The position numbers and the translations under genes are program-made. Source: Rhizaria sp. SCN 62-66 (lineage: Eukaryota). Taken from it: a stretch of 64,000 bases of DNA. The stretch lies in contig MEDY01000030.1 in the NCBI GenBank assembly GCA_001724265.1, positions 1 to 64,000 of the forward strand, read 5' to 3'. Positions within the stretch are counted from its first letter, which is position 1; each line of letters begins with the position of its first letter. Below, piece by piece: positions 6,836 through 57,300 of the stretch. A model generated the notes under the pieces. The model worked only from the letters and a program-made list of their open reading frames with translations, had not been told where the DNA came from and did no database searches.

Positions 6836-6901
<66 letters not shown>

Positions 6902-9900
6902 AGCGTCGTCCTCGCGCTCAAAGCCGCCGAGTAACGGGCCCTCGCCAATCTCACCCTCCTCCGCATCGCCCCCCTCCGCGTCGTCCTCTGCGCCGGTGCG
7001 CGCGTTGACGCGCGTGTTGGAGAGCCAGCGCTCGAGCGCGGGGGAGAGCGAGCCGCGCGTGGGCAGCGCTGCGAGCGCGGGCATGCGCGTGCGCCGCTGC
7101 AGGATCGCCGCTGCCGCCGCGCCCGCGCCGCCCGCGGCCACGTGCAGTCGCGCCATCGCGAGCACCACGCCCTCCGCCAGCGCCTGCTCAGCAGCAGCTG
7201 CCGCGGCGGCGGCGGCCTCGGCCGCGGGGTCGCTCCGCGCGATCTCAGCGTCCGCGTCAGTGTCAGTGTCATTATCTGCGCCAGCGTCAGCATCAGGGGC
7301 GCCATGGGCGCGCACAGACGCAGACGCAGACGCAGGCGCAGACACGGACAGAAACAGAGGCAGGACTGCGGGACCGAGCGCGGCGACCTCGGGCCCGTGC
7401 GCGGCGCACCGCAGCGCGGCGGCGCGCACAACGGCCTCGAACAGCGCGGCCAGCCGCGGTGCGGGCGCGGGCTGCGCTGGGTCAAACGCGTTGACGAACC
7501 GGTCGTAGTACGCCGCGGCGCCCGGCAGCGAGGCGCGCTGCGCTGCGTCGGTCCATCCCAAGCAGCCGTCGCGGCGGGCGCGCAGTGCGGCGGCGCTCTC
7601 CGCGGCCGTGGCGCCCAGCAGCACGGCCTCAGCAAGCGCGGCGGCGTCATCTGACCCGTCGGCCGCGATCTCGCCCTCGGCCTCGTCCTCGCCCGCGCGC
7701 GCCCACAACAAACCCGCTGCTGCGGCGCCTGTTGTAGCTGTAGAGCCCGGTGTGGTCGTGGCGCAGCCGGACCAGACGCCGCGCACCGCGGGGAACGCCA
7801 GCGCACTGCCGGCGTCCTCACTGGCACTGTTGCCGTCGTCGTTGGCGTTGTCGGCGTCGTAGTCAGCGCCGCTGCTGTCGTCGTGGTCGCAGAGGGGGTC
7901 GAGGCCGCGGGCGAGGAGCGCGAGCGTACGGCCCGGGCGGGCTGCGCGCGCGGCGCGGCGGCGGGCCAGCCACTCGACGGCGGCGCGCGCGTCGCGGCGG
8001 TACAGCGTGCGCAGACCGCACGGCTCGCCGGCGGGCGACGCGCTGGCCGCGCTCTCTCCAGCGCGTTCTAGCTCGGCGGCCGCAGAGGGCGGCGCCGCCA
8101 CGCCCGCGGCCACGCTCAGCACCGGTAGCACCACGCGCACGCGCGCGCGCGCACTCGCACTCTCACTCGCTGCCCCAGGGGCGGTGTCAGCGCCAGAGCT
8201 CGCGGCCCGCGCATTAATAGCGGCGGAGCGCGGCAGACGCAGCAGCCCGCGGGCGTGCGCGCGCGCGGCCTCGCGCGGGCCCAGCGTCGCCACGTACAGC
8301 GTCACGCCCGCGCTCTCCGGCTGCGGCTGCAGCTGCAGCTGCGCAGTCGTCGCCTTGGTGCCCGCTGCAGTCTGACCGTTCCTGTTGCTGCCGCGGGCTG
8401 CACTGGCTGCGGTGGCTGCGACGTTGCGGCGCGCGAGACGGAGCCCCGCGCGGACGCCCAGCTCGCGCGCCTGCGCGACGACGGTCCACGCCGTGTGCGC
8501 GACGAGCGCGTGCGCCAGCGCCAGCAGCGCGCTGGCGCCCAGCGCCGCGCCCTGCGCGACCCGCAGCGCGTGCGTGCGGGCGCGCGCGGCGTCAGCGTCG
8601 TCGCGGCGCCGCAGCGCGGCCGCGAGAGCCGCGGCACTCGGCCCGCGCAGCGGCGACGCGAACTGCGGCATCACCACCATCGGCACGCCAGCGGGGCCTG
8701 TCGCGGCCGCCTGCGGCACCGGCTCCGCCTCGGCCAGGGCCGCCGCGGCCGCTGCGGCGGCGTCTTCGGCGGAGATGCGGTGACCCGTCTCAGCCTCCGC
8801 GGCGGCGCGGCCAAGCCCGAGCTGCGAGAGCGCGGAACGCTTGATGAGCGGCGCGCGCAGCTGAGCCAGTGCGGCCTCGGCGACGGCGGCGCCCAGCGGC
8901 GGCGGGCTGTGGAGCGCCTCGCCTGCCGCCCATGCCGCCACTGCGGCCGTCGGCACGCCCGTCCCCGGCACGGCCACAGCAGCAGCAGCAGAGCTGGCAG
9001 TGACTGCGCCGTCGCTGTCGTGGTGTTTTAGCTTCAACGTCCGTTTCCCTCGCTTTGTTGCTGTTGCTTCATTCGCGCCGGTCGCGACGACCTGACCGAG
9101 CGCGCGGACGGCGTCGAAGACGGCGCCCGCGGTGGGGGCCAGCGCCAGCGCGGCGTGACTCGCGGGCGCCCAGGCAAGCCGCGGGACGGCGGCGTGGACG
9201 CGGGAGAAAAGCCAGTTGGGCCGCGCCGCGAGGGACGCGCGCGCGGCCGTGGCGCCGCGGAGCCCCGCCGCGGGTGCCGCGAAAAGGAACGACACGATGC
9301 ACGCGCGCACGGAGCCCGGAAGCGCGGCGAGGTACGCGTCGACGGTGAGGCGGTACGCGGCGTGCGCGGCGTCGAGCGCGCGTGCGGCCTCGACCGTACC
9401 CAGCAGTTCGCCGGCCGTCTGCCCGTAGTGGTTGCTGGCGGGCCGCGCGTGCACCGTGGGGTCCGCACCGTGGTGCAGCAGTAGGCACGCCACGTCCGTC
9501 GAGCGGCGCGCGCAGGCCAGTAACAGCGGTGAGTAGCCGTGTAGGAAGAGGTTGACGTCGGCGCGCACGTCAAACACCCCTGCGGCCTATTCCGCCGCGG
9601 CCTCCGGCGACAGGTCGGGCTCCTCGCCGCAGAGCCCCGAGAGCGTGTCGTACACGGCGTCGACGTCGGCGTGCACGGCGCGCGCAATGTGCCAGACCTT
9701 GTCGCGCGCGCGCTTGAGACGGCGGCCCTGGACGTCGAAGTCCCAGTCGGCGTCGAGCGACGCGCACGCGCGCCACAGCGACAACGACGCCACCTGCACC
9801 GCGCTCGCGGGCGCGCGCGCCGACAGCGCCACGGCCGACGCGATCTCGCGGTCCACGGCGGCCTCCTCCGCGTACTCAGCCGCCGCAACGCGCAGCAGCG

Positions 9901-9988
9901 CACAGGCACTTGTCGTCGCCGTCGGCCAGACGTGGGGCTTGGCCTGAGGCGGAGCAGTCGCAGGGCCGAAGGAGCCTCCGCTTTGCAT
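6523..9988 (-). CDS. Ala-rich protein with an ankyrin repeat and a C-terminal EF-hand-like motif. Contains an in-frame TAG at 9587-9589 and an apparent frameshift at ~6900.
   Basis: ORFs 10024-9587 and 9577-6797 share a frame, joined by GAA TAG GCC GCA GGG GTG. Ankyrin repeat ADVNL..GYSPLLLACARRSTDVACLLLHHGADP. After the poly-GCT tract the plausible protein continues in another frame (LDADRDGAVESGEF...KVD TGA). Confidence 0.6.
6825..6904. repeat. (CAG/CTG)n trinucleotide tract, poly-Ala on the coding strand
   Basis: About 25 near-perfect agc units, with a phase break at 6900/6901. Confidence 0.9.
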
Positions 9989-10420
9989 TGTCTTAGTGGT
10001 CGGAAGAAATGCATAATAAAGCAATCATTAGATACTATTGAAAAAAAAACATTCAGATACACAATAAAATTAGAAATTCATGTCGCAATTTGGCGATGAC
10101 GGACTTTCTAAAGAGATATGCTGTATTTTAGCAACTGGTAATTGGAGGCTTGGCCAGCTTCCCGAACAGTAAATTGACATGAGCGGCGCGAGAAGGCGCA
10201 ATATGAAGCATTGGCGGAATAACCGCATTATTTCAGCGATATTACCACCGTTAAATGCTGCAAATCTACGTGTAACATCCAGATTCTACACAGATAATGC
10301 CAGTATTGCTGGAATATCGCTAGAGTGATAGCAATTCGCAATGCTGTAACCATCACACAGTGCCGCAAGTGTTGCTTGTGTGAGGTTGCAGCGGCGTCAG
10401 GCGTCATAGCTGACGCACGC

Positions 10421-10972
10421 TCACTGCTGCTTGGGCGCGGCGGGGCGCGCGTGCTCCCTGGCGGCCTTCTTTGCGGCCTCCTTAGCGGCCTCCTTGGCGG
10501 CCTCTTGGATGAGCCCCTCGTGGTCGCCGGTCTCGGTCACGTTGTGCATCACGCGCGCGGCGCGGGACTCGGCCGTGCTGCCGAACACGCCGCGCAGGTC
10601 TGCGCGCCAATGAAAGCAAAAAGAGGTCGATAATACAGGGAGAGGGAAGTCAGAGAGAGAACAAGAGGAAACAACGGGGAAACGTGGCAGTACGGAATAG
10701 AGCAAGAGAATGAAGTGAAATGAAGTTGAGCGGGGGTGTTGGGATTGTAGAGTAGACGGACCTTCGCAGTCGTGCAACTTGGCCTCAACGGCGGGCGGGT
10801 AGCGGCAGTGCATGTACTTGATGTTCGAGTAGACCATAGAGAGCGTCTCAGCCTCGTCGGCGCCGTGTAGCGGCACGAACTTGGCGTAGACGGCCTCGCG
10901 CGCAGCGAACTGGTCATCCGTCTCGTGCCGCATGCGGCGCAGGGCGCCCGCGCTGGGGGCGGCGGAGGACAT
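10421..10972 (-). CDS. Small XRN2-binding domain (XTBD)-like protein, probable intron 10761-10600 (~129 aa spliced)
   Basis: RRMRHETDDQFAAREAVY...LSMVYSNIKYMHCRYPPAV resembles the XTBD pattern (E.d..W..R..F...L+.v..N....gC.YP). A pyrimidine-rich 162-nt GTCCGT...GCAG segment looks like an intron. Ends in TGA. Confidence 0.7.
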   Translation of the reverse strand: MSSAAPSAGALRRMRHETDDQFAAREAVYAKFVPLHGADEAETLSMVYSNIKYMHCRYPPAVEAKLHDCEGPSTLQSQHPRSTSFHFILLLYSVLPRFPVVSSCSLSDFPLPVLSTSFCFHWRADLRGVFGSTAESRAARVMHNVTETGDHEGLIQEAAKEAAKEAAKKAAREHARPAAPKQQ

Positions 10973-16408: not shown

Positions 16409-18070
16409 TCAAGGACTGACCATGTTGCGGCTGTCAGTGTGATACTTCCGAACAGGGCTGGCAGCAAGCGCGCGCGCAATGACAGCAACCGCGATGGCGG
16501 TGACAACCAGCGTGTATCCCATGACGACTGTGAGCTGCGTCGCGTCCGCAACCGGCACCGCGAGCACTGCGCCCTCCGCGGCCTCGGTGGCCTCAGCGAC
16601 GAGTCCGATTGCGCGCGCGCGGCCGTCAACGCACGCGGCAACGAGCACGGCGGGCGGGAGCGCGACCGCGACGCTGCCGCCGCCAGCGCGCGGGGCGTGG
16701 TAGCGCGCCGACACCGCCACCTTCGCCTCAGCGGCGTCGGCAACGCCGCCAGTGACGGACAGCGCGGGCAGCAAGAGCACGTGCGCGCGCGGGGCGGCGC
16801 CCGCTGCGGCCTCGATGTCGGGCTCGTGCCGCTGCCACGTGCGCTGCGAAGCACTGAGACTCTGCAAAGCCGCGCTAGCGTTCACATCAGCGTCAGCGTC
16901 AGCGGCAGCAAGCGCGGAAAGTCGGTCGGCCTCGCGCGCAACGAAGGGGTCCGCGTAGAGGCCGCCACCAAGCGGCTGCGCCACAACCCACGCGCACTGC
17001 TGCGCATGACCGCTTCCAGTAGCAGTGGCAGTGCCAGTGGCGGCGTCAGCGCCAGCGGCCTCGGCGGCGCAGGTGCGGGCGTCCCGGTCGCAGTGAAGAG
17101 TAAACGTCAGCGGACGGTGCAGCCCCGCGCCTCGCAGCGCGCGCGTGGCGGTGCAACGGCACGGCGTGGTCGGTTGTTGCGACTGCTGTGCTGGTGCGGG
17201 CGCGAAGAGCTCGAGCTCGAGCCCGAGCGTGCGGGCACGGGCAGCGTCCAGCCGTGGGACTGCGCCTACACTGGCGGCCGCGGGGGCGGTGGCTGTAAGC
17301 GTAACCACCGGGCCGGCAGCGGTGACGGAGACGCGCACAGTGAGCGGGGCGACGGAGCCGTTTTGCGGGGCGGTGGCGCTCTCCAGAGCCGTCGCGGCGA
17401 GTTGAGTGAGACGCATCGCGGCCTGCGTGGCCGGGGACGCGGTGGAAAACACGGCTAAGGCGACAGGGAGACGCAGCGGGAAAGCACCGGAGCACACGGC
17501 GGAGCGCGTGTGCGCGCGCTTGGGCGCGGCCCGTGAGCTCGACTCTGCCAGGTCTGCCAGAGCACGCGTGGCGAGGAACTCGGCCCCGCGCAGCAGCACG
17601 TCAATGTCGGGCCGCGCCGTGGCGACAGCAGCATGCGCGGACGTGGAAGGCTACTAACTCTACGTTGACACTGCAGGTGTGGAAAGAGCGTGAGACATGA
17701 GGTCGTCTGCGGTGGTCTGGCACGGAGACTCGGAGCTGCGTGGATGACCAAGCCAATACAGAAAGTCCGTTAGGGCGTCGTGTCCTGAGCCCGCAAGCTC
17801 ACCAAATGCAAAGAAGTCATAATTTCCACTCTCACCACGGCGGATTGCAAGGTCAAAAGCGTCCGAATACGCAGTTATACTCTCGCTGCTGTTTATGGAG
17901 CCTGAGTTGAGGTAGACTTTGGCGGATGTGAAGCTACCGTCGTATGACAGGCTTAAGAGAGGCAAGGACGGCGCACTAACAGCACCCTCCAAAGAACCGG
18001 AGCACGCCACAGCCGCAAATACCATCAAAAAGAGCGTGGTGTTCCCCCACTTGCAGCGTAGAGAACGCAT
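16409..18070 (-). CDS. PIGX: PIG-X/PBN1-like GPI mannosyltransferase-I subunit, with three in-frame TAG codons (17660, 17654, 17651)
   Basis: N-terminal signal-like segment LFLMVFAAVACSG, then GLYADPF, PDIEA, ARYHAP, LPPA, VPVAD and a C-terminal TM helix, consistent with PIG-X. The two ORF-track pieces are in frame across ACG TAG AGT TAG TAG CCT. Ends in TGA. Confidence 0.72.
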
Positions 18071-41655: not shown

Positions 41656-44600
41656 TTACCAGACGACGTCTTCCTGCGTACTGCCGACAGGCGGCCATTG
41701 CACGGTGTCGTCGGATGGGAACCACATCTTAACGGGAATCGCAAAAGAGCCCTTGACCATGAAAAGCCCGATGGGTTCCTGCTCTTCCTCGTCTTCGCCA
41801 GTGGAGCTTTTGACAGCTTTGGTCACCGTGTCGAGCGTCGTCGAGACCTGCTGCTGGTCGACGCGCCGCGGCGGTGGCGCGGGCTCAGGCGACATTATCA
41901 TCACGGTAGCCGGAACCTCACCGGGCTGCAAGAACAGCGCCGCAGTGTCATCGTCAATCTTTGGACTGCCCACGGCCCCGCTAACTGCCACTGCATCACA
42001 TGTGGCGTTACCAGAAGCAGCGCCCGTGGCTGCGCCAGAAGCTTCGCCGTCGTAGGCGTAATTGGGCGCCATCGGCTGCTCGCGGCTCTGGTCGCGCTGC
42101 ACGGCCGTCTTAAGCGCGGCTGCGGCGTTGGCAGCGCGGGCACCAAGTTCCTTGCCAACCATAACGTGACCGCGCTCCTCGAACACAAAGTCTTTTTCAA
42201 TCAACGACTTGGTGGCCTCAGACACGTGAAGGCGGTTCTTGACGCCGTGGCTTTCCATCTTTTGCGCCACGGTCACCGAGCGGCCGAAGAGGTGATAACG
42301 CGGCATCGTGCGTCCAACCACACCGGCCGTTACATATCCGGTGTGGATGCCCACGCGCAGGCCCATCGGTGGGATCGGCGGCAGCTCCGACTCAACGTCC
42401 ACTTTCTTGGTCTTTGCGCGCACACGGAAGAAGCCCGTTTTAGCGAGCTCACGGTCACGCTCACGCTCGGCCTTGCGCTCGCGCGCAGCGCGCTTGGCCG
42501 CGAGACGCATCTGCTTCGCGCGCTTCGATGCAAGCGGGTGTGGCAGCAGCGAGAGGAAAAAGACGATGTCCATGCCGAAGTGGACGAGATTGCGCGCGTG
42601 CTCACGCGCGGGCAGTGCTTCGAAGTTGGTAAGCGAGTGCACGATGCCTGCGCAGGCAAAGTAGCAGTCACCAATGGTCTCGACCTTGTAGATACTGCGG
42701 ATCGTGGCGCACTGATCAAAGACGGAAAACATGACGTTGAGAAACATGACAAGCTCCTCTGGCAACAGCTGCGCCGACATCGCAGTGAACGACACGACAT
42801 CAGCGAACAAGATCGACGCCGTCTCAAAGTGCTGCGCGAAGTTAGAGTTGTCCGTGTGCACAATCGTGAGCAGTACCTCGGGCGGCAGCATCTGCGACAG
42901 CAGGTACAGCGCGCGTCCCTCCTCGTGCACCGCACGGTGCGTGTTGATGTAGTTCGACCGGATGCCGCGCTCCGCCAAGTGCGCTGTGCGCAGCAGCAGG
43001 ATACAGGCCACCGCGACGAGCGCGATGTAGACGTACGTCGCATCGGTGGCGTGCATGCCGCCGTGGACGAGCATCGCGACGGTGAAGTGCACAAAGATAG
43101 TGACGGTGACAATAAGAATGCCGGGGAACAGTAACGTCGACTGCATCGACACGCAGACGAGCAAACTCAAGAGCAGCACAGCGCCGAGTCCGGTGTGCAG
43201 AATGTGTGAGAAGACCATAGCGACGATCAGAATGTGCGCGAAAACAAAGACGCCCAGTCCGACCAAAAACTGCAGGTGGTTCAGCATCCACGACCGCAGC
43301 AGGTTCATGCTAGTGGCTGCCGGCTCAGCCGGCTTGCTCTTGTTCAGATCCGCCGTGTTGAGCGTGATATTGCTTGTGCTAACAGTGTGGCCACCGGACT
43401 GCTGACTGGACGAGTTGTTGTTGTAGTTGCGCGACACGTTCATGTTAGTCACGGCTGAGTGCAGCGTGTACCCACGCAGATCCTGATTCTGCAGCTCGTT
43501 GCCCTGATTCATGATCCGGTGGTGCAACGACAGCGCATCGTTGTGATTCTGCAGCTTGCGCGCCGTCACCGTCAACACCACCACAGTGATGACGCCGAAC
43601 AGCAGCACGCCGCCCGACAGCGCAAAGGCGACGTCGTCGTCGGCCGTCGCGCTGATGACATAAATGCTCGTCGTGCCGAGCCCGATGTCGCGGGCGTACA
43701 GCGCGCAGAAGAGCGTGGCAAGCAGCGTGAAGCAGAGGACGAACACGCGCATCTGATCCGCGAATACTTCATGATACAGCAGTCCGAAACCAGCCTCCAG
43801 GTCCGAGACAAGGTCGTCGTCCATGTAGAACGCAGCGGCCGACTCTTTCTCAGCCTTCAGACGCGCCTCCTCGGCCGCACTCTGCGCCTGCGCCTGCCGC
43901 GCTTCTTCTTCGACGTCGCGCGCGGGCGGCGGCGGCGGCGGCTGCTCTTCGGGCTGCACAGTCTCATCCGCGTCATTCTGCGCACGCGCGCGCTCGAAGG
44001 CCTCCTGGATCATCTTGCGGAACTGCTGGTCATCGTCACCGTCGTCGCGGTACACGTTGCCTTGGTCGTCGACCTTGTCGCCCGCCTTGAGCTCTTGCTT
44101 CTTGGGCGCCGACTTGGCAGCGCGCTTAGACGTGTCTTCGTCGTCCTCCTCGTCTGCCTCGCCTGGTGCGACACCGCGCGCCGTGAGACGTTGGCGCTGG
44201 CGCTCGCGGATGCTGGCCTTGGAGCGGAAGCAGTCGAAAAACCAGCCCCAGAGCCCTTCGCCGTTGTGGTAGCGCAACAGCAGCGAGTCCGTCATTGCCT
44301 TCGGGTTGCTAGGGTACAGAAAGAAGTTCACCGGGTTAGTGTTGGCGTAGAACATGTGCGTTGCGCTGTCGGTCAGGGACGCCAGCGACGACGTCGAGCC
44401 GACAGAACCCGCAGAGGATACGGACTGCTCATCGTCATACCGCCTGCGCGGCGGCAGCGGCGAGGCATGAACAGTTGTCGCAGCGGCGGCCGCGGCAACA
44501 GCAGCAGCAGCAGCAGCAGCCGCGTCCGCGGGGTCGTCCTCGCTCACTATGAGCGGGGGCGCGTCCTTGTTCAACGGCGCCATCTCCACCGCGCCGCTCT

Positions 44601-47600
44601 TGCCAGCACTACCTTGACCAGCTGAACTGTGGCTGTGCGAGGCTGCGCGCGCGGTGGCGTTAGAGGCCACAGCCGCCTCTCTCGCGGTGACCGTGTCGCC
44701 GCCATTGATCGCCTCGATCAGCGCGCTGCCGCCGCCCAGGCGCTGTGCGGCGAAGATTTTGGCGTCCCACTCGAGGCCCTGTTCGTGCGTCAGCGGCTCG
44801 ATCACTGGCAGCGCGTCGGGCTCCTCAGGCGCGTCCACCAGCACAGCCGGCGTGTCCCCGCCCGCGATGCCACCGCGCGCCGACAGAGGCGTGGGCAGCG
44901 GCACGGGCTGCGTGCCGTCGGTGTTGAGCTCACTTTGGTCCGACGAGTGCACCTCGTTCAGCGCGGCCACAGCGCTGTCGCCGTCGGGCGCAAACGTCAC
45001 CACGTTGGTCGCGAACGTGAGCACGCGCGCGACCTGATGCGGCGTGTTCGGCGTGCCGGCAACCTGGCCAGGCAGCACCTCATCGGGCGTCAACGGCGAC
45101 TGCGCGGGCGTCGCGTCCGCAGATCCCGGCCCCTGACCGGGCACCGAGAGCAGGTTCGGCGTGCGGCGCATCGACTTGGGCGCGCCGCCCTTAAGCGAGT
45201 TGCCACCCGGTGTACCACCGGCGCCGCCAGCGCCACCGCCAGAGACGAAGCTCACCATGGGCGCGGGCGCAGAGCCCAGGCGGAGGTGCGCCATATCAAT
45301 CTGCGGCGGCGCAAAGGCGCCCTCGTGGCGCGCCATCATCGAGGCCGCGTGCCAGCGTGCAGACATGCCCGGCGTGCGCGTGCGCGCGGACATGTCGCCC
45401 GCGGAGTCGCGCGCGTAGTCGCCGACAGTGAGGGGGCCGCCAAGCATGCGTGTGCCGGTGTAGGGCGACGCGCCGACTCGGGCAAATTCTCCGCCGGCAC
45501 GGCGCTGGTGCTGGCGCAGCTGTGCCGACGCGTTGACAACGGCGTCGATGTCAATCGTGTTGTCATCGTTCATCAGACGCACGACTTGTTGTGGGACCTG
45601 TGAGCCGGCGGATGACTGCCGGTTCGTCGACAACGGCGTATAATTGACCGTGGGTTGTGGGAACGCGAGCAGCGACGACGGCGGGCGCGAGTTTGGAGAG
45701 TTCATGGCGGCCGGGTCAGTGGGTGGCAGCATCAGATTCTGCGGCCCCGTGATCTGGCCCAAAGCAGCAGTGCGCGGCGTGGCGCGGACAATAGGTGACG
45801 GCACGTAACCGTGCATCATGTTCGACTGCGAGCTCGCGACTGAGCCCGCGCCTGCGCCACTGGGCGGCATCGGCGCGACACGGTGGCGCGACGCCGACGG
45901 CGGTGGGTGCGGCGGAGAACTTGGCAGCAGCTTCGACGGATGCGGTGTTATGCCCGCGGCGGTCAGAGCGCTGCGCGCCGAGGGCTGGAACACGGGCGAA
46001 GCGCGGTCCGCGTCCGAGTTCGGCGGCGGCACCGTGCCGCCGCTTCCAGACTGGGAGTTGTCGAACATGATCACAGCGTCGGGGCCCGACGCGGCAGGGA
46101 CGCCGCGGCCGAGCCCGCTGATGGACGGCGATGCGTCGCGCGACATTCCCGGCACTAGCGAGCCCGTGGGCGCGAAAGAGGCCGGGAGCACGATCGTCGC
46201 GCCGCCAATAATGGCGCTATTGAGCTCCATGATCGCGCCCTGCGCCCCCGCGCCGCGGGCCGAGGCGAGGCCAGTGCTGCGCATACTGGAGCGCGGGGTC
46301 GGGAGCACACCGTGCCGCTGCGTCGCAGCCATACGCGCCGCGCTCAGCAGTGCACCAGTGCCGCGCGCAGACGCCGGGGGCTCCGCAGCGCTGCGCTGTT
46401 GCTCCATCCCAGTCCCCGTAGCCGCAGGGTTGACCGTGCGCACGTACGCGGGCGTGGAGAAGTGCGCCGACGCCGGCATCAGCGCCGAGTGCACAGCGGC
46501 AGCGCGGTTGCGTGCGGCAACACCAGCGCCGGCGAGCATGGCTTGCGTCATGCGCGCGCCGCCGGTGCGGATAACCGCGGGCGCGGTGGGCAGCACACGC
46601 TGGCCGTTGGCAGGCGTGCCGCTCGTGGCGCGCGAGGACATCGCGCCGCCGGCGAGGGCGTCGTTGAGCACCGAGTTAAGGTTGCCGATGACCCCCGCGT
46701 CGAGTATGCTGACAGGACTGCGAATGGCGTTGTGAGCTCCGGCGTCGAGGACGTTGCCGACAAGCGAGTCGCGGCGCCGCGCCATGCGGCCGAGGCGCAC
46801 AAAGGGCCGGAGCTCCTCGGTCGCGCCCGCGCCCATGGGGGAGTTCATGATGTTGGGCGAGCTCAGCATCGGCGAGCTGAGCATCGGCGACCCCATGGCG
46901 TTGAGCAGCGTGTTTGACGCGCGCGAAGACGTCGCGTGGCCCGACAGGCGACCCGCGTTGAGCATTGCGCCAGGCGGGGACTGCAGTTGGCCCTGCGCGA
47001 GGTTGCGGCCCTGCGACAGCGGCGTGCCCGACACACGGCGCGACCCCGACAGCGAAGTCGTCGACGTTGACGACTGGTGCCGCAGTCCTGGGATCGTAGG
47101 CGACGGCGCCCCCGCGCGCGAGCCCGTGATGGCAACCTGGTTCGCGGCCGCGGGCGACGGGTTCTGTAGCAACCGCGTGGTGCCCGTCACTGGGGTCGCC
47201 GACGCCGCGGGAGAGCCCAGGCGTGAGCTTACCGCGGGCGCGACGCCCACGCCGGTGCTGCTCGCAGTGCGCTGTGCGGGCGTCGGGGACAGCGGCGCGC
47301 CGGAGCCCGAGGGCAAGCCGCCGCGGCCGGGCGTCTGCCAGCGGCTCAGCGTGTGAGCTGACGCCAGCGATCCCGTCTCGACGTGGCCGTAGGCGTGAAA
47401 GGAGGTGCGCTGCCCGCCGGGGCTGCCCAGACCGGCGTTATGGGGGGGCGCCGAGATGGCCGCCTGGTGCGGGTGCGAGTACGCGGTGGGCAGCGGCATG
47501 CTCGCGGTTGTCATAACCGACTGGTTGAACCGCGGGTCTAGCGGGGGCATGTCCGTGGGAAGGCTGTTGCGCGCGGCGTTGCGCGGCGGTGAGAGGCCGC

Positions 47601-50600
47601 CACGGGCGGTGGTGAACTGCGTCACTGTGTGGTTCGGGATTGGGGCCGTGAGCTGCAGTGTGCCGGGTGCAAAGTGAACTTCCTTCATTGTGTTGGAGTT
47701 GGCTTCGACCGCGGAAGCAGAGGGTGCCACGGCGGGCTCCGTCGTCGCCGTCGCTGTGATGCCCAGAGACTCGTCCACGGCCGCCGAGCCGCCCATCGCA
47801 GATCCGCTCATTGCGGAGGCGCCGCCATCGTGCCCGTGGCTGGTATTGTTGGGGTTGTTGCTGTTGTTGTTGTTGTAGCGCATGTGCGCGTACTCTGGGT
47901 CGTCTTCCCTGACATGGTGGTCATCGTGATGATGATGTTCATCATCATCGTGGTGGTGACCGTGATCGTCCTCGCACTCGCCCTCGGCGACCGCGTCCGT
48001 GAACGTGTTGCCGTTGCCCTGTCCGTCGCCGTGGCTGTGAGTGCGGCGGTAGTGGTCCTCGCGCTCAAACCGCGCGCGGTCGTGATCGGGCCCTGCACTC
48101 GCGCCGCCGGAGCCGACGACGTTGATCATAAGCTGGCCGTACTCGGCCGCGGCGGGGATCTCGTTCGCCGCGGCCGCGATCTCGTTGAGCAAGTGCACGT
48201 GGTCAGCCAGCACGAACTGCTGTTGTGGCGGGCCGGGGATGGGGTTGGGCACCATTGCGCCCGACGCCATAGACGACGTATCATCGACTTCCTAGTAGTA
48301 TTCCGAGTACCGTGGCGTACGGATGGGCTCGTCGTAGGCCGCCGTGTACGGGTTCACCGTTTCCGTCTCCACGGCTTCGTCGACAGGCGTGGGGCCGTAG
48401 AAGTCGCGGCCGACGCGGATCGGCGCCACTTCGTCGTCGTCGTGGATGATCGGCAGCGGGGGACCACCAGACTGCTGCTGCTGTTGTTGATACAGCTGTT
48501 GTTGTCGCTCAGGTCCGCCAAACTCTAGCGGCGCCTCGCCATCGATGCCCTGCTCCTGCATCATCATCATCATCATCATGGCCTCGTCGCCCTCAAAGCC
48601 CTCCATCATCACCGCGCCCTCGTCACCGCCCTCGCCCATGTGTGCGGCGGCAAACGGCGGCAGCGGTGCATGGCCTGCAGCCGCTGCGAGGTGCATATCG
48701 AGCACTTGTTGGTCCATCTCGCCGAAGTATTCGACGTCAGCGCCTGCGCCACCGACGCCGCCGCCGGCCCCGCCCGCGCCGCCGCCGCCACCGAGCCCGC
48801 CCAGCCCGCCGCCGCCGCGCCCGCCGCCGCGGCCGATGCCGCGACTGAGCCCCGACCCCGTGGCGAGGTACTGGAACCCGTCATCGTCCTCGATAACTTC
48901 CTCCGCGGCGCCCGCGGAGGGCGAGAAAGTGTAGCGCGCGTCGACACCCTTGCGGCGGCCTTCGAGGCGCCAAGTGCGCATCTCACCTTTGCCTTTGACG
49001 GGCATCGTGCCCAGGTCGGCGAGCGCGTAGCAGATGGACTCGGATGGGTGCAGCGCAGTGCCAACGGGGTCAGACCGGATGTCTTGGCCGGCCTCAATTT
49101 CGTTATCCGGAGTCATGACGAGACGCGCCGTGTCGGACGAAAGCTGGATCGTGTCGGGCTTGCACGTGGAGCCCATGCGTGACGAGGTGTTGATTGTGTC
49201 GCCGATGATGCGGTAGCGCGGGTAATGCACGCCGATCACACCGGCGACGACGGCGCCAGAGTGCAGACCCATCTTCATGCGCAGCTGTGGGAAAAGCTGT
49301 CGGATGCTCGCCAGAGCACGCAGCGCCAAGTCGCACATAACGTCGGCGTGTAGCACTTGCTCGAACGGGCAGCCGCACGAGACGAGGTAAACCTCACCGA
49401 TCGTCTCAACCTTGTACACACCGTACGCCTTAAATTCGGCGAGCTTGGCGTCTAAGTCAAGGAAGATCGCGTTGAGCAGCATGACGAGGTGTGGCGCTTC
49501 GATGCGGGAGGCGATCTTGTCAAAGTCGCAGATGGAGGTAAACATGATGGTGACGGATGGGAAACGCTCCCACGCCTGCTGCATCGCAGTGCTCTTCATG
49601 CGGTCAACAATGGGCTTCGGCAGCATGCGCAGCAGCACCATGTTCATGTTGCGCTCGTACGTCTTAATCTGCGTGTTGAGCAAAAACGACTGGCGGTCGA
49701 AGAGTTCTAAGTTATAACCTGCGCGCGCACGGAGCGCGATAGCACACAGCATCACAGCGGCCACAATGGCCCAGCTGGCGTATGTCGACAGCGTATAACG
49801 GCCGACAAGCGGCAGCGCAACGAGCGGGAACGCGCTCACTTCACCGGCCTCGAGCAGCGCAAAAACGACCCACACGAGGAAGCTGAAGATGTTTAGTACA
49901 GAGGCGACAACCCACTTGCGCTGGACGTCTGAGTGGCCCCACAGCATGACGGCCAACAATGGCGTCAGATACAGCGGGTTCAGCGTCATCCACAGAAGGA
50001 ACGCGCAGAGAATGTGAATCAGCACGAGGAGCAGCAGCGCAGCAGAGCGGACGACCTCAGCCGCTGGCATGAACGACGTCAAATGTGAGTAGAACGTGTA
50101 CGGCATCGCCGCGCGCACTGTGTGCCACTGCTCCGGCGTAGAGCAAAACGCCGTGCGGTCGTCCACAGCCGCACCCGCGCCGCCGGCGTCGCCGCTGTCG
50201 GTCGGGCCGCCGCCACCGTCACCACCACGGCCGCCGTTAACGTCATCGTCGCCGTCGACAGCGTAGTCGTCGTCGAAGTCGCCCGGTGACCGCACGTTAC
50301 CGCGTCCAGCGGCGAGGGGTGACTCAGCGCCGTCGGGCAGCATACGCTCAACCGCCTCTGGCAGCTCCGCCGTGGGCAGGTCTTCGTCCTGCGCCGCGGT
50401 CGCCGCGGCAGTACGGTTTGTGTCGGCCACGAGCTCTGCGCCGTCGCTCAGCACCACGCCGTCGTGGTTCACTTCGAGCACCACGGAACCCATGGGCACG
50501 TGGGCGCCGTCGTCTGCGCGCGCGGCGTTAGCGCTAGCGGCCGCGGCGGCGCTGGCGGCGGCGTTGGCGGCGGTTTGGGCCTTGCGTGCGGCGACGACAC

Positions 50601-51195
50601 GCTCGCATAGACTGTGTGTGATGTACCAGGCGACGCCGATAACGACAAAGCCCAGCACGCGGAGGCCAAGCACGACGTACAGCAGCGTCTGTTTGTCGCC
50701 CCACGCCGCGCCAGAGTCAGGGGCGAAGTCGAAGTCTTGCACAACGAAGTCTGCGAGAGCGAGCAAGGCCCACAGGGGCAGCATAAGAAGAAACGGGCTT
50801 GTGGTCGAAGCGCCAATCTTCTGCGCATAGTTCGCGTACGCGGCTTCGAGGTAGGCACTGAAAAAGCCTAGGGTGTGGGAGTCGACCATCTGCTCCATCA
50901 GAGTAGGGAGCTCGACGTCTATTTCGTCGCCTTCAGAGACCTGACCGAAACCGGAGTCGCCGTTGGACATAGCGTCCTCTTCGTCGTCGTAGTTGTGATT
51001 GTACAGACTTGGGCGCAACGTGCGGGGTTGCCCGGACGGCACCGTCGACGGCGCGGCTCGCGATGGAAGACGCGCAGGTTCGGCGGCCGTCTCAGGCCCG
51101 ACGTAGTAGGAAGAGCCCGGACCGCGTCGCGGCGGGGGCTCCGACAGGCCGTGCTGCGGCCCGGGGCTAGCTTGCGGCGGGGACTCGTACTCCAT
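41656..51195 (-). CDS. Membrane class III nucleotide cyclase, TM-C1-linker-TM-C2, probably guanylyl cyclase (~3,180 aa), with an in-frame TAG at 48292-48294
   Basis: ORFs 51255-48292 and 48270-41656 share a frame (TAC TAC TAG GAA GTC GAT GAT ACG TCG TCT ATG). C1: YKVETIGEVY...PRYRIIGDTINTSSRM. C2: LFADVVSFT...YKVETIGDCY...PRYHLFG. Ends in TAA. The start codon is uncertain and an upstream exon is possible. Confidence 0.85.
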
Positions 51196-52277
51196 GCTGG
51201 AGAGGCGTCCCTCGGACCGGCGGGGTGTGGAGTCGCTGCTCAGAGGCAGGAACAATTAACGGGGAGTGCCAGAGGACAGTAAGCTGCAGTTGCAGAAGTT
51301 TTGACGTGAGTGTGATACTCTCACAGTTACAGGGGCAGATCGCACCTAGCGAAAACCCAGCTACGGTTTGGCATAGCGGCGCGAATTCAAGCACAAATAG
51401 AAAGAAGTGTAACGTTAGTATATCATAGTCGAGCCCTGAAAAATAGCTGAGCGGCCTCACCGCACTAGCGCAACTCTCGGAAGCAGAGGAGTGGATGGTC
51501 AAACAGTGGGGCATGTGGGTAAAAGCATGTGTAGGGACTAAGTCGCCGTAAAGGCCACGAAGTACAGGAAGAAGAGAGATAGTAGAAAATTAACCAAATA
51601 ACTCCAGGCAGTTGCACAGGCGTCATCAGATGTCAAGACGAGTGCGTAATTTGATCGGCTCGGTCGGGCGAACTTAACGCCCTTTGTGTCGGTCGCCTCC
51701 AGCCACGGTACCCCCTCGGCTCTACCACCTCGGTTTGGTAAGACTTGACAGCCTCATACAGTTCACGACGTCTTACGAGTGCGAGCGCTTTGGGGCAGAT
51801 ATAACCAGTTTGACAAAGTCGGGTGAAAGTGAAATTGGAGTATGATGCGAATATCGATGCGAATATCCAATAAATATGCGTTTTTATTCCGTGAGAAGTT
51901 ATAAAATATCACATTGGCCCGGGCCAATGTGTAAATAAGGTCAAAGGCGAGAGGTGCGCGCGGGTTTTCACACAAACAACAACAGCACTTCCACGCACAC
52001 ACAGACAATCAGAAACTTGCGAAGAAAAAACGACACTGAGAGCACACAATATTAGGGAATATGACACTTAATAAACACAAACACTCCACAGAAAAACCCA
52101 GCTTTTGCTTGCTGTGTTACTGATTATCGTCGTCGAAGCGGCGCTTCTGTGAGTAGCTCACTCACTCATTGACTCACGAGAAAAGCGCATAGATAGCAAA
52201 AACAACAGCAATGAAGACGATAGTAGCACACGCAAACACAGTCGCATGAAGTTTGCGGGGCTCACCAAATCAATCAC

Positions 52278-54369: not shown

Positions 54370-57300
54370 ATGAGCCGACAAACTCGAGTTCGCGCCCAAC
54401 AAGATGGGCAGCAACCCACCTTCAGCTAGCACTCGGCTGTGTGGGTCGACGGAGCGGGGGCGTACAACGCCAACGCCTCCGGTCCGGGCTTTCTGAGTGA
54501 CAGCCTGCGTAAGCGGCTTGAGGACGCAGGCTACGCCATCAACACGGCGGACCAACTCCCTTCGCTGGATGAGCTCACGCGTCTCATCACAGTCGATCTC
54601 GCCGGTCTCTGGCTCGCCCCTAGCCGCGTCCGTGCCATGTTTCCCGCCCCGGCGGCACCACAAGCAGCGACAGCGCCCACCGCAGGGGCGACGGCTGCTG
54701 CGCAGCCGTCTATGCGCGCTCAGCGGCTGCCGCGCCGCAACAATAGCCGCGTTACCGAGGTTGTGCTCATTAGCGACTCCAGTTCGGAGGCCGGCTCCGA
54801 CAACGAAGATATTCGCGGTGGTATCAAGGCCGGCGACAACATGGCCGACGGCAGCAGTGCTGTCAAGATCGACGGCGGCGCCAGTGCTGTCCGTGCGCAG
54901 CTCGCACCGGTCGCGGACGCGGATAACGATAAGAACGCTAAGAACTCCGCCGCCGATGTCAAGCCCGTCGACATGAAGCCAACCGCGGCGGATCAGAAGC
55001 CCGCCGCCGTGGCTGGCTACATGACAGATGCCGCTGTGCCTGCTGATTTTAGGTCTGCTACCTCTGCCTCTGCGTTTGGTCCCGCTCTGCCCCCGTCCTC
55101 AGCCGCTGCCGCCTCTGCTGCAGTGACCTTGACCGCGACCGCGGCCGTTGCTGCAGCCGATGCGGACGCCGGCGACGACACCGACGCGGCGCTGCGGCCC
55201 GCACTGCTCCGCTCCGTGCTGCAGCTCACTATTGAGGCCGCCAAGACTATCTCCGCGCTCAACTGGGGCGAGCGGTCCACGCCGACGACAGAGCTACTGC
55301 AGCGCGCGATGTCATCCTCGCACAACCGCGCCGGTCCACTGCCCGCCGCCGCCCTCACTGGCACGGCCGCACTGCTGCGCGCGCTGCGTGAACGGTCCGC
55401 GCCCGGTGAGCCTCTGTATGTGGCCCTCGAATCAGCCCCCGCGGAGGCCGTTGCGCGCACGCTGTTCCTCCTGCAGCGCGCTCGCCTCGCGCGGCACGTC
55501 GTGCGCATCCTCAACGCCGCGCTGCTGGACGGCGAGTGGGCGCGTCTGGAGCCCGCCGCGACGACGCCGGCGCGCGAGGCCAAGTTCGAGCTCACGACAG
55601 ACTGCCCCGCGGAGCTGTTTCTGACTCTGTGGAGCGATGTGATGACCGTGCTGGCGCAGGCGCGGTGGCTGGATCACCCGCCGCCCGCCGCGCGCCCGCA
55701 GTCGCTGCCGCTGCCGGCCGTGGGGGACGTGCTGCCCGCGTGGATGGAGCTGCCCGCGCAGCCGAGCCCGACGCCGACGATGCTGTGGCACGAGAAAGAG
55801 CGGCAGCGCGGAGAGTTTTCCGTCCGGTTCCCGTTGCCGCCTGCCGTGCTTGCACGCATTGTGCAGACGGAGCGTGCGCTGCTCGCGGATGACGCGCGCG
55901 CTAATGCTGACGCAAACGCTCACGCACACGCCAATTCCAGCTCCAGCTTCAGAGCCAGCGTCAGTGCAAGTGCCAGTGCGAGGGCGAGTGATGACAGTGG
56001 CGCTGGCTCCGGAGCGTTGCAGCCTTCGGCGTTATCTTCAACACTGACAATGCAAGGCCAGACACCGATTTACGGCGTCGCGCCTGTGACATTCTACGAC
56101 TTATTGGGCGCTGACGGCGACGCGCCCGGCTGCTACGAATCGTGGCCTCGCGCGCTGCTGCGCCAGCTTAACGTTTCACAGCAACAGCAGGAAGACTAGC
56201 GGCAGGAGCATAATGTGCGCAGTGAAGCTGACCTGCGTGCGTTAACGCCCGATGAGTGCGCTGCACTGATCGAGAGCCAACTCCCAGCGCCAGCGATGCT
56301 CATGGTTCACTTACAGCGCACTGACAGCGACGACCGCGTCGGCAGCAGTGACGTAGACCAGGACGAGGTGGGCGGGCCTGACGAGGCGCGACTGCGGCTG
56401 CTGCGGCGAAAGCACGTGATGTCTGCTCTTTTCGCCGGGACACACGTGGCGCCCGACTTTGACCCGTATGGACTCACCCTGCGCGAACCCTGGACGCCCC
56501 GCGCGCCGCTCTCCCATCTGCTTTCACCGACGCCCACAGTCTCTCCCGAGCCGGCTACTGCATGTACTCGTGGCTCGCTTGAGGTTGTGCTCTTCCAGTT
56601 GGCGCTGGAGCGGCTGGAGACCGCCGCCGCGCTGCCGTGGCCCGTTCCGCCGCCATACCTGCGCCGGTTTTGCCACGCCGCTGGCCATGCACGGGCTCCG
56701 CCGACCGCAGCGCCGCCCGCGTTCCCGTCCCCCGGGTGGTCCTTTCGCGCGCAGCTGCTGACGCTGGCGTGCCTGGCCAGCGCGATGCCGCTGCTGCACC
56801 CGCTGTGGGCGGACCGGCTGTGGCGCAGAACGCTCTCGGGCTCGGTCAGGCTCCTGTGGCGGCTACCGGATCAGGCGCTGCGGAGCGACACGACGTGCGA
56901 TGCGTTGTTGAAGCTACTGTTGGCCACGATGAACCGCGCGAGTGTGGCGGCGCAGCGCTGGGAACCGATTCCCTGGCTCTTGTTTGGTGAGACCGTTGAC
57001 TTCGCGCTCACGCCGCCTGCGATCTGGCTCGGCCTTGCCGCAGGGGTGCGGTTTGCGCTGTCGCCGATTCTGTCGCGCCGTATTGCCGGACTGACGTTGC
57101 TGCAGGGCCATGTGTTCATGATCCGTCGCTCATTCAGCCAGATTCGCAAGAATTTTAATGAGATTGAGGGGTTCAAAGCCTTCAATGCGAGCCTCGGCAT
57201 CCCTGAAGGTCCTCTGATGCTACCAGCTTCACGCGAAACCCCCGTAAGCTTGTTGTTCCGCGTGCGACCGCGCCAAGCCTTCGAACTTTCTTCGCCGGGC

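What the first reader, a model, noticed from the sequence alone, without database searches (positions are those of the whole stretch)
9587..56199. Non-standard nuclear genetic code: UAG appears to be a sense codon (probably Gln) while UAA and UGA remain stops
Seen: all seven internal stops interrupting genes in this window are TAG (9587; 17651, 17654, 17660; 48292; 54427, 56197; four unrelated genes on both strands), and each time the same frame continues with coding-like sequence. None of the 11 complete genes ends in TAG (5 TAA, 6 TGA). TAA terminates NTF2 (FRLNYG*) and RRM1 (CLSCGS*) at their family-conserved ends, so UAA is still a stop. Contexts: AAE*AAG, ST*S**PST, YY*EVDD, QQDGQQPTFS*HS, QQQQED*RQEH. 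Known: UAA and UAG almost always share meaning in nuclear codes. Reported exceptions include the fornicate Iotanema (UAG=Gln), an uncultured rhizarian (UAG=Leu) and a few ciliates. Inference: Gln is favoured by the Q-rich, polar contexts and the single CAG->TAG transition, but no TAG sits at a conserved column I can verify. If this GC-rich lineage is not one of the known cases, this is a new reassignment.
Basis: partly seen in the sequence, partly recalled or inferred. Interest (0 to 1): 0.96.

Follow-up and report, generated by a model that had tools for sequence, protein, structure and literature searches.

The report
Rare in-frame UAG codons, probably translated
In this DNA from an unidentified wastewater protist, four unrelated genes carry TAG "stop" codons in the middle of sequence that is clearly still coding, which most likely means the organism reads UAG as an amino acid, a rare kind of genetic-code change.

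Summary
Six of them (9587; 17660/17654/17651; 48292; 56197) lie inside solid coding sequence of four genes. The seventh (54427) is ambiguous. There are 0 in-frame TAA and 0 in-frame TGA in 17,220 coding codons, and 0 of 11 gene ends use TAG (5 TAA, 6 TGA).

The TAGs are not assembly errors. ORF pieces ending at them recur exactly in 3-6 contigs, and two sites recur in three further studies. They do not look like introns of this genome's type or like gene boundaries.

One homologue spans both sides of TAG 9587. The adenylate cyclase needs both halves around TAG 48292. The PIG-X signal peptide lies upstream of the triple TAG and its domain downstream.

Best reading: UAG is a rare sense codon while UAA and UGA terminate (confidence about 0.65). 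Gln is not supported; the one informative column is aliphatic (I/L/V in 17 of 21 alignments), a weak hint of Leu.

No tRNA-CUA, eRF1, bridging RNA or peptide evidence was reachable, and the lineage is unidentified. If true, it is a new member of a known kind (Iotanema, rhizarian exLh, phyllopharyngean ciliates).

The parts
9587..9589 (-). In-frame TAG in the ankyrin/EF-hand gene. It is codon 134 counted from ATG 9988.
   Evidence: One search gives the context AAAE-TAG-AAG. GC3 is 0.89 upstream and 0.85 downstream. The next in-frame ATG is 303 codons downstream. Homologue P0010 aligns to residues 68-223 across the TAG. The 133-aa piece ending at the TAG is found exactly in 5 contigs.
6523..9988 (-). 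Ankyrin/EF-hand protein gene. Its frame changes near 6900 at a (TGC)n repeat, and its true stop is TGA at 6523.
   Evidence: Pfam finds an Ank repeat. The EF-hand-like loop and the TGA end are seen in the shifted frame. No intron of the genome's type repairs the shift.
17651..17662 (-). Three in-frame TAGs within four codons (TAG AGT TAG TAG) in the PIG-X/PBN1 gene.
   Evidence: Searches show the sequence. Frame 0 scores best in all 10 sliding windows upstream that contain no TAG. The upstream 318 nt score 0.44 above the other frames, beyond the 99th percentile (0.39) of non-coding pieces. The 136-aa piece ending at the first TAG is found exactly in 3 contigs.
16409..18070 (-). PIG-X/PBN1-like gene. 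The signal-peptide-like N-terminus lies upstream of the TAGs; the PIG-X domain and a C-terminal hydrophobic stretch lie downstream. Stop is TGA.
   Evidence: Pfam PIG-X matches residues 331-550 at E 3.7e-09. The first ATG after the TAGs is 79 codons on and has no hydrophobic leader.
48292..48294 (-). In-frame TAG between the two cyclase halves of a two-domain membrane adenylate/guanylate cyclase.
   Evidence: One search gives the context SEYY-TAG-EVDD. All three database members of the N-terminal piece, one of them with an amino-acid difference, end at ...SEYY. X4 contig record 11 covers the site, but its 4 differences were not among the rows shown.
41656..51255 (-). Cyclase gene of 3,199 codons. 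The N-terminal catalytic domain is C2-like and the C-terminal one is C1-like. Stop is TAA.
   Evidence: Pfam Guanylate_cyc matches two stretches. The N-domain matches mammalian AC5 C2 at 72.3 bits against 43.0 for C1, and lacks both metal-binding Asp. The C-domain aligns to C1 and carries FADV and IGD.
56197..56199 (+). In-frame TAG in the giant USP-type gene, 589 codons into a coding frame of more than 3,190 codons.
   Evidence: One search shows the context. The TAG is unchanged in X2 record 7 (0 differences), in X4 record 15 (all 10 differences listed, none at the TAG) and in X6 record 31 (0 differences). The 586-aa piece ending at it is found exactly in 5 contigs, plus 1 JGI contig.
54427..54429 (+). 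Ambiguous TAG near the start of the USP gene. It is either codon 20 after ATG 54370 or the end of a 5' intron.
   Evidence: The upstream 19 codons are not coding-like, while 54430-54640 is strongly coding. There is no in-frame ATG for 69 codons after it. It is unchanged in X2 record 6 and X4 record 14.
54370..64000 (+). USP/UCH-type giant gene, cut off by the window end.
   Evidence: Pfam UCH matches residues 2933-3203 at E 2.8e-32.
39403..39574 (-). Intron 1 of the giant Sushi/TIG/EGF gene. Its terminal TAG (39403-39405) is a splice acceptor, not a codon.
   Evidence: Splicing from GTACGT at 39574 to the TAG at 39403 (172 nt) joins a signal-peptide exon (MGRQFYPILLALSLWLVVVAQTAQA...) in frame to the 6,870-codon exon. 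The tract before the TAG is pyrimidine-rich.
6797..6799 (-). TAG that is the first stop in the upstream frame of the ankyrin gene. It is out of frame in the frame that is coding at this position.
   Evidence: The 35-codon 'extension' behind it has GC3 of 0.54 against 0.85 in the gene.

Best explanation
The organism is an unidentified, GC-rich, intron-poor eukaryote found in bioreactor and wastewater samples. [quoted passage not shown] UAG is a rare codon here: 6 in 17,220 coding codons, seen only in fast-evolving, low-complexity-rich genes. That would fit a young or poorly decoded reassignment.

Shown here: the TAGs are real DNA, they sit in continuous coding sequence of single functional genes, and no gene in the window ends in TAG.

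Inferred: a tRNA with anticodon CUA (or efficient near-cognate decoding) together with an eRF1 that no longer recognises UAG.

The amino acid is unknown. The single informative column weakly suggests an aliphatic residue such as Leu rather than Gln.
For: 1. Codon counts. There are 6 in-frame TAG, 0 TAA and 0 TGA in 17,220 coding codons of ten CDS segments. Off-frame stops in the same DNA are 75% TGA.

2. Gene ends. None of 11 uses TAG (5 TAA, 6 TGA). Sequence after true stops drops to GC 0.34-0.55, while after the TAGs it stays at 0.62-0.72.

3. Each gene is one unit across its TAG.
- Homologue P0010 (696 aa, from another organism) aligns to residues 68-223 of the ankyrin protein, with the TAG at 134.
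- 21 ankyrin-repeat alignments run through the TAG position.
- The cyclase N-half is C2-like and lacks both metal-binding Asp, while the C-half is C1-like and has them, so one active site needs both.
- PIG-X has its signal-peptide-like start upstream and its Pfam domain downstream.
- The next in-frame ATGs lie 303, 79, 8 and 33 codons after the TAGs.

4. The TAGs are not errors.
- ORF pieces ending exactly at the TAGs occur in 5 (ankyrin), 3 (PIG-X), 5 (cyclase: 1+3+1 across three members) and 5+1 (USP) contigs.
- Contigs of three other studies keep TAG 56197, and two of those studies keep TAG 54427. These include a strain about 0.5% diverged.

5. The TAGs are not introns of this genome's type.
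- Six introns worked out here start GTNCGT. The four measured are 126-266 nt, GC 0.43-0.48, with 66-75% pyrimidine.
- The 300 nt before the solid TAGs have GC of about 0.44-0.84 and no pyrimidine bias.
- The few in-phase GT sites with G at +5 would delete sequence that scores as coding.

6. Precedent. UAG-only reassignments exist, and UAG is scarce in Iotanema (PMC5304391: abstract, section 6 and passages read).
Against: UAG is very rare. It is absent from the conserved genes (RNR, NHE, carrier, flavoprotein: 0 in about 2,250 codons) and from the 6,870-codon giant exon, so no TAG sits at a strongly conserved housekeeping position.

Three of the six TAGs are clustered within four codons, which is odd for a codon this rare.

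The ankyrin gene also carries a frame change, so it could be a decaying gene or a mis-assembled one.

With this codon usage, 63% of random nonsense mutations would be TAG, so 'all TAG' is only weakly significant on its own.

The only relative found (L001, with the same GTACGT splice signal) ends one of five genes in TAG followed by AT-rich sequence.

No tRNA is present in the window. None of the 8 listed polyA-RNA contig pieces bridges a TAG.

The window was picked for this anomaly from a very large scan.
Confidence: 0.65

Rival explanations
1. Standard code. The TAGs are genuine premature stops, so these four genes are truncated, decaying, or split into independently expressed pieces.
For: Random nonsense mutations would be TAG 63% of the time here. 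The ankyrin gene also has a frame change. The TAGs occur only in fast-evolving genes. Relative L001 uses TAG as a stop. The strain differences in the USP gene are 8 non-synonymous against 5 synonymous of the 13 listed, which shows no clear constraint.
Against: Four of about ten long genes in a compact 64-kb stretch would have to be broken, with no TAA or TGA and only one indel in 17,220 codons. There is no UTR-like AT-rich sequence after any of these TAGs, and for the ankyrin and PIG-X genes no nearby start codon. The stops are kept across strains, studies and years. A triple TAG by independent mutation is very unlikely. PolyA RNA contigs lie on both sides of the cyclase TAG. A cyclase N-half alone lacks the metal-binding residues.
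Confidence: 0.12
2. The TAGs are removed before translation, as the ends of unusual in-frame introns. Candidates are a 330-nt GTTAGT...TAG intron or a 21-nt micro-intron in PIG-X, or non-canonical GC-rich introns elsewhere.
For: Introns in this genome often end in TAG: 2 of 3 in NTF2 and intron 1 of the giant gene. TAGs at 39403, 13854 and 53787 follow intron-like sequence. TAG 54427 follows a pyrimidine tract plus CAG. In PIG-X an in-phase GTTAGT lies right after the signal peptide, the same layout as exon 1 of the giant gene. A stop-free in-frame intron of about 50 codons exists in the gene at 10421-11008.
Against: The six worked-out introns start GTNCGT, and the four measured have GC 0.43-0.48 with 66-75% pyrimidine. 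None of the in-phase candidates matches both the signal and the composition. The PIG-X candidate would delete 106 codons that score as coding in the right frame in 10 of 10 windows. Around 9587, 48292 and 56197 the sequence is GC-rich with high GC3 up to the TAG. No GT..AG joint near a TAG appeared among the 15 joints listed, though 81 more were not shown.
Confidence: 0.08
3. The UAGs are recoded at the RNA or translation level without a code change. This could be A-to-I editing of UAG to UGG, as known from sexual stages of some filamentous fungi (recalled, not checked in a paper here), or programmed read-through at specific sites.
For: The tandem TAGs in PIG-X resemble the tandem edited UAGs recalled for a Fusarium kinase gene. 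The splice signals (GTACGT, CTAAC) are fungus-like. UAG is rare and gene-specific.
Against: 4 of about 10 long genes would be affected, far more than the small share of genes recalled for those fungi. No shared sequence context follows the TAGs. The gene set (12-TM two-domain cyclase, Sushi/TIG/EGF giant protein) does not look fungal. No A>G row at a TAG was among the 40 differences listed, though 169 more were not shown. The absence of TAG terminators is not explained by this reading.
Confidence: 0.07
4. Assembly or sequencing artefact.
For: One frame change at a microsatellite suggests local assembly trouble.
Against: Independent contigs from other studies are identical at 54427 and 56197. 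ORF pieces ending at every solid TAG site are found exactly in 3-6 contigs from several sources.
Confidence: 0.02

Closest known systems
Iotanema spirale (Fornicata): UAG = Gln, with UAA and UGA as stops (PMC5304391; abstract, section 6 and passages read)
   Same: Only UAG is read as sense while UAA and UGA terminate, and UAG codons are scarce.
   Different: Iotanema was inferred from a transcriptome with many conserved alignment columns. Here there is one 64-kb window and no Gln signal. The lineage is unknown, and nothing places this organism among the fornicates.
Rhizarian exLh (Sainouroidea): UAG = Leu (PMC5304391; section 6 read)
   Same: A UAG-only reassignment in which no UAG terminators were seen (56 UAA and 15 UGA there; 5 TAA and 6 TGA here). 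The one informative column here is aliphatic, which is compatible with Leu. Sainouroids such as Rosculus are common in wastewater plants (PMC8827150, passages read).
   Different: exLh has 384 UAG in 71 genes, including conserved genes. Here there are 6 in 17,220 codons and none in conserved genes. No evidence links this window to Sainouroidea.
Phyllopharyngean ciliates: UAG = Leu or Gln, arisen independently (PMC11687900; abstract read)
   Same: UAG alone is reassigned, found by mining metagenome-derived genomes, and UAA is kept as a stop.
   Different: Those cases are ciliates with suppressor tRNA genes identified and widespread UAG use. This window has about 60% GC, introns of 126-266 nt and a long contig, which does not look ciliate-like (that judgement rests on recalled knowledge). 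No tRNA was found here.
Ambiguous stop/sense codes (Condylostoma, karyorelicts, Blastocrithidia; PMC4967479, 10.1101/2022.04.12.488043 and PMC12153298, search listing and abstract starts only)
   Same: Stop codons are translated inside genes.
   Different: Those codes involve several stop codons with position-dependent termination. Here only UAG is affected, and it is not seen as a terminator in 11 genes.

Membership tests
Nuclear code with UAG as sense and UAA/UGA as stops (Iotanema / exLh / phyllopharyngean type) | In-frame UAG inside genes that are otherwise intact | tested here: met
   Six TAGs lie in four genes, with coding signal and functional parts on both sides.
Nuclear code with UAG as sense and UAA/UGA as stops (Iotanema / exLh / phyllopharyngean type) | UAG codons fall at conserved alignment columns with one consistent amino acid | tested here: inconclusive
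   Only one TAG (9587) lies in a family-conserved column, which is I/L/V in 17 of 21 alignments. Pfam scores differ by at most 0.9 bit between residues. No orthologues were found for the other three genes.
Nuclear code with UAG as sense and UAA/UGA as stops (Iotanema / exLh / phyllopharyngean type) | UAG is not used as a terminator | tested here: met
   0 of 11 gene ends use TAG. The sample is small: P is 0.02-0.17 if TAG made up 15-30% of stops.
Nuclear code with UAG as sense and UAA/UGA as stops (Iotanema / exLh / phyllopharyngean type) | UAA and UGA still terminate and are absent inside genes | tested here: met
   There are 5 TAA and 6 TGA ends, each followed by lower-GC sequence. There are 0 in-frame TAA or TGA in 17,220 codons.
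Nuclear code with UAG as sense and UAA/UGA as stops (Iotanema / exLh / phyllopharyngean type) | A tRNA with anticodon CUA | not testable with these tools
   The window has no tRNA gene and no Rfam match. No whole genome is held.
Nuclear code with UAG as sense and UAA/UGA as stops (Iotanema / exLh / phyllopharyngean type) | An altered eRF1 that spares UAG | not testable with these tools
   eRF1 is not in the window, and other contigs of the organism could not be reached.
Nuclear code with UAG as sense and UAA/UGA as stops (Iotanema / exLh / phyllopharyngean type) | UAG is kept unspliced and unedited in mature mRNA | tested here: inconclusive
   PolyA RNA contigs lie on both sides of the cyclase TAG and upstream of the USP TAG. 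None of the 8 listed pieces bridges a TAG, and most rows were not shown.
Class III membrane adenylate/guanylate cyclase with two complementary catalytic domains on one chain | Two cyclase domains, one supplying the metal-binding Asp pair and the other the Asn/Arg pair | tested here: met
   The C-terminal domain aligns to mammalian C1 and has FADV and IGD. The N-terminal domain aligns best to C2 (72.3 against 43.0 bits), has the GDTINTSSRM motif and lacks both Asp. Which motif supplies which catalytic residue is recalled knowledge.

The most novel reading that the evidence does not exclude
An undescribed GC-rich protist lineage common in wastewater systems has recently freed UAG from termination and reads it as an amino acid, possibly Leu. 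The window would then catch an early stage of codon capture: UAG is still very rare, confined to fast-evolving genes and already gone from gene ends, while the only relative found still terminates at UAG.
Probability: 0.4. Interest if true: 0.75.

Novelty: new member of a known kind. Interest (0 to 1): 0.62.

Why it matters
UAG-only reassignments in nuclear genomes are known from only a handful of lineages. They bear on how UAA and UAG can be told apart by eRF1 and on how codon capture starts. A case in which the codon is still rare, and in which a relative still uses it as a stop, would show an early stage of such a change.

There is also a practical point. Standard-code gene calling has already cut these genes into pieces in public protein collections.

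Tried and rejected
- Whole genome: none is held for this window.
- tRNA and Rfam scans of the window found nothing.
- Orthologue searches found only the window's own pieces or nothing:
  - PIG-X, own 396-aa piece only;
  - 301 aa around the cyclase TAG, own 967-aa piece only.
- The full HMMER search with the ankyrin protein gave 36 hits. One is its own piece, one is a true homologue (P0010), and the rest are generic ankyrin repeats or low-complexity matches.
- The metagenome scan with the cyclase found no locus. The scan with P0042 gave L001 (useful), L002 (a fragment of the same gene), and L003 and L004, which are near-identical copies of one bacterial stretch matched by chance.
- The genome-contig scan with RNR returned only bacterial RNRs, nearly all from Bacteroidota, at 61-70% identity, so it gave no help in placing the organism.
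- The protein atlas gave no taxonomy.
- The record behind L001 is not searchable.
- Read laying: none of the 8 listed RNA pieces bridges a TAG, and no splice joint near a TAG was among the 15 joints listed. Most rows were not shown, so neither absence counts as evidence.
- Strain differences gave no usable dN/dS.
- Intron searches around the TAGs and around the ankyrin frame change found nothing that fits the genome's splice signals.
- Literature searches found no report of a UAG reassignment in a GC-rich wastewater eukaryote. The giant-virus catalogue PMC13524828 (passages read) is not relevant.
- Supplementary files of papers were closed and not consulted. Those of PMC5304391 might give UAG frequencies and GC content that would sharpen the comparison.

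Full report
**What the window is**

The 64-kb window has about 60% GC and is eukaryotic. Ribonucleotide reductase large subunit and NTF2 are interrupted by spliceosomal introns. The genes recognised by Pfam are:
- RNR;
- a flavoprotein;
- an ankyrin protein;
- a Na/H exchanger;
- PIG-X/PBN1;
- a giant Sushi/TIG/EGF protein whose main exon has 6,870 codons;
- a two-domain adenylate/guanylate cyclase;
- a mitochondrial carrier;
- a giant USP-type protease.

Public runs holding the stretch are bioreactor, wastewater, activated-sludge and microbial-fuel-cell metagenomes from several studies and years. The source is therefore an uncultured organism.

**The observation**

I built gene models from Pfam hits, GC3 and a codon-usage score trained on the window's own genes. 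In 17,220 coding codons there are 6 in-frame TAG, 0 TAA and 0 TGA.

Off-frame stops in the same DNA are 75% TGA and only 9% TAG. An all-TAG pattern is therefore not what misread frames or non-coding stretches would give.

The eleven gene ends I could define use TAA five times and TGA six times, never TAG. Each is followed by sequence of GC 0.34-0.55. The 100 nt after the in-frame TAGs stay at 0.62-0.72.

With this GC3-rich codon usage, 63% of random nonsense mutations would create TAG. 'All TAG' alone is then worth only P=0.16 for four events or 0.06 for six.

**Which TAGs count**

Several TAGs that lengthen ORFs are not codons.
- TAG 39403 is the acceptor of a 172-nt intron (GTACGT...TTTAG). 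Removing that intron joins a textbook signal-peptide exon in frame to the giant exon.
- TAGs 13854 and 53787 lie upstream of starts, behind intron-like pyrimidine tracts.
- TAG 6797 is the first stop in the upstream frame of the ankyrin gene, but it is out of frame. The gene changes frame at a (TGC)n repeat near 6900. It continues through poly-Ala and an EF-hand-like loop to a TGA at 6523, followed by AT-rich sequence. No intron of the genome's type repairs that shift.
- TAG 54427 is ambiguous. The 19 codons between the only in-frame ATG (54370) and the TAG do not score as coding, and the TAG follows a pyrimidine tract plus CAG. On the other hand, strongly coding sequence begins right behind it and has no in-frame ATG for 69 codons.

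That leaves six solid TAG codons in four genes: 9587, 17660/17654/17651, 48292 and 56197.

**Are they real?**

Yes. Contigs of an independent study (X2) are identical over 54427 and 56197. A strain about 0.5% diverged (X4) keeps both TAGs; all of its 11 and 10 differences in the two covering contigs are listed, and none is at a TAG. A third study (X6) keeps 56197.

Database proteins that end exactly at the TAGs are found letter for letter in several assemblies:
- ankyrin N-terminal piece, 5 contigs;
- PIG-X N-terminal piece, 3 contigs;
- cyclase N-terminal piece, three members on 1+3+1 contigs, one member with an amino-acid difference, all ending ...SEYY;
- USP piece, 5 contigs plus one JGI contig.

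**Are they introns?**

Six introns worked out in the window start with GTNCGT and end in YAG, several of them in TAG. The four I measured are 126-266 nt long with GC 0.43-0.48 and 66-75% pyrimidine.

Nothing like that precedes the solid TAGs. The 300 nt upstream have GC of about 0.44-0.84 and no pyrimidine bias. The few in-phase GT sites with G at +5 would remove sequence that scores as coding.

PIG-X is the most tempting case: a GTTAGT lies right after the signal peptide, 330 nt before the last TAG. But the 318 nt in between score 0.44 above the other frames, beyond the 99th percentile of non-coding pieces (0.39). Frame 0 is also the best frame in all ten upstream sliding windows that contain no TAG.

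A 21-nt GT...TAG micro-intron there cannot be excluded by sequence alone, but it would be unlike every intron seen in this genome.

**Are they gene boundaries?**

No AT-rich UTR-like sequence follows any solid TAG. The next in-frame ATGs are 303 (ankyrin), 79 (PIG-X), 8 (cyclase) and 33 (USP) codons away. More importantly, each gene is one unit across its TAG.
- **Ankyrin protein.** The exhaustive HMMER search with this protein (36 hits) found one true homologue, P0010, from another organism. Its single chain aligns to residues 68-223 of the query, with the TAG at 134.
- **Cyclase.** The N-terminal catalytic domain matches the mammalian C2 domain best (72.3 against 43.0 bits for AC5). It lacks both metal-binding aspartates but keeps the Asn/Arg motif. 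The C-terminal domain aligns to C1 and has the aspartates. One active site therefore needs the parts on both sides of TAG 48292. The residue roles are recalled knowledge of class III cyclases.
- **PIG-X.** The signal-peptide-like start lies upstream of the three TAGs. The Pfam domain and the C-terminal hydrophobic stretch lie downstream.
- **USP gene.** For this gene there is only the coding statistics.

**Which amino acid?**

No orthologue aligns a residue to a TAG. Searches for PIG-X, the cyclase linker and the USP N-terminus returned only the window's own pieces or nothing. In the P0010 alignment the TAG falls in a gap.

TAG 9587 does, however, sit in helix 2 of a degenerate ankyrin repeat (E-TAG-A-A-G-V-F-D-V-R-A-D-V-N). 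In 21 BLAST alignments to ankyrin-repeat proteins that run through it, the aligned residue is I in 11, L in 4, V in 2, T in 2, D in 1 and A in 1. It is never Q.

Scoring the segment against Pfam with ten different readings of TAG gave the best Ank_2 score with Leu (21.2 bits against 20.3-20.6). The difference is small, and the best-scoring stretch begins after the TAG.

This is one site and the alignments are not independent. It argues against confidence in Gln and hints weakly at an aliphatic residue such as Leu.

**The relative**

P0010's cluster includes a JGI contig of 245 kb, of which 22 kb were fetched as L001. It has 53% GC and different neighbouring genes: Nup160, YL1 and RPN11. It shares the GTACGT 5' splice signal.

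Its roughly 5,200 coding codons have no internal TAG apart from a few near the ORF starts. One of its five genes ends in TAG followed by AT-rich sequence. If the two organisms are really related, the change in the window's organism would be recent. The relationship rests on one fast-evolving protein at 33% identity.

**Weighing the explanations**

A sense UAG explains all the observations at once:
- interruptions by TAG only;
- no TAG terminators;
- continuity of function across the TAGs;
- stability of the TAGs across strains and years.

Several things count against it:
- the codon is very rare and absent from the conserved genes;
- three of the six copies are clustered;
- the ankyrin gene also has a frame change;
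- no tRNA-CUA, eRF1, bridging RNA or peptide evidence is available;
- the window was selected for the anomaly.

I put a sense UAG at about 0.65, premature stops or decaying genes at 0.12, unusual introns at 0.08, RNA editing or site-specific read-through at 0.07, and artefact at 0.02.

**Comparison with what is known**

UAG-only reassignments with UAA and UGA kept as stops are documented in three groups:
- Iotanema spirale, where UAG is Gln and UAG codons are scarce;
- the sainouroid rhizarian exLh, where UAG is Leu, with 384 UAG in 71 genes and 56 UAA plus 15 UGA terminators (both from PMC5304391; abstract, section 6 and passages read);
- phyllopharyngean ciliates, where UAG is Leu or Gln (PMC11687900, abstract read).

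Sainouroids such as Rosculus are abundant in wastewater plants (PMC8827150, passages read). That makes them a lead for this organism's identity, nothing more.

I could not place the organism. The atlas, the RNR scan of prokaryote genomes and the protein searches gave no taxonomy. Four literature searches found no report of this case.

If the reading is right, this is a new member of a known kind. Its interest lies in the rarity of the codon and the possibly recent origin of the change.

Noticed in passing
window 6790-6960 (- strand): The ankyrin gene changes reading frame at the start of a (TGC)n microsatellite of about 20 units. Upstream the coding frame reads the repeat as poly-Cys. The frame that is coding downstream (poly-Ala, an EF-hand-like loop, TGA at 6523) is shifted by one base. 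This could be an assembly indel, a real frameshift or an odd intron; it is not resolved.
   Followed up: partly
window 41656-51255 (- strand): This is a 3,199-codon membrane cyclase whose two catalytic domains are in the reverse order to mammalian adenylate cyclases: the C2-like domain comes first and the C1-like domain second. They are separated by about 2,000 residues of low-complexity linker.
   Followed up: partly
window 18790-39574 (- strand): A giant secreted protein gene. It has a small signal-peptide exon, a 172-nt intron, then one exon of 6,870 codons with Sushi, TIG, EGF_CA and ephrin-receptor-like repeats near the C-terminus. The first roughly 4,200 residues match no Pfam family.
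   Followed up: partly
window 400-1216 and 4531-4797: The introns share an unusual 5' signal, GTNCGT (GTACGT, GTCCGT, GTTCGT). They are pyrimidine-rich, and several end in TTTAG. The same GTACGT signal occurs in the RPN11 gene of the relative (L001 16359).
   Followed up: partly
window 10421-11008 (- strand): A small two-exon gene of unknown family. Its intron of about 50 codons is in frame and free of stops, which shows that stop-free in-frame introns do occur in this genome.
   Followed up: no
window 14589-16368 (+ strand): A multi-exon gene for a multi-pass membrane protein with no Pfam match. It ends in TAA at 16368, only 40 nt from the PIG-X stop on the other strand.
   Followed up: no
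window 52278-52500 (- strand): The mitochondrial-carrier protein ends in a long His/Gly/Asp-rich tail (HGHGHDHGHGHGHGHDHDHEHGH...), which suggests metal binding.
   Followed up: no
L001 21400-21450: In the only relative found, a coiled-coil protein gene ends in TAG followed by AT-rich sequence, so that organism appears to use TAG as a terminator.
   Followed up: partly
L005-L084: The window's eukaryotic-type RNR large subunit is 61-70% identical to RNRs of many Bacteroidota genomes. This is a known type of eukaryote-like bacterial RNR, and it makes RNR useless for placing the organism.
   Followed up: no
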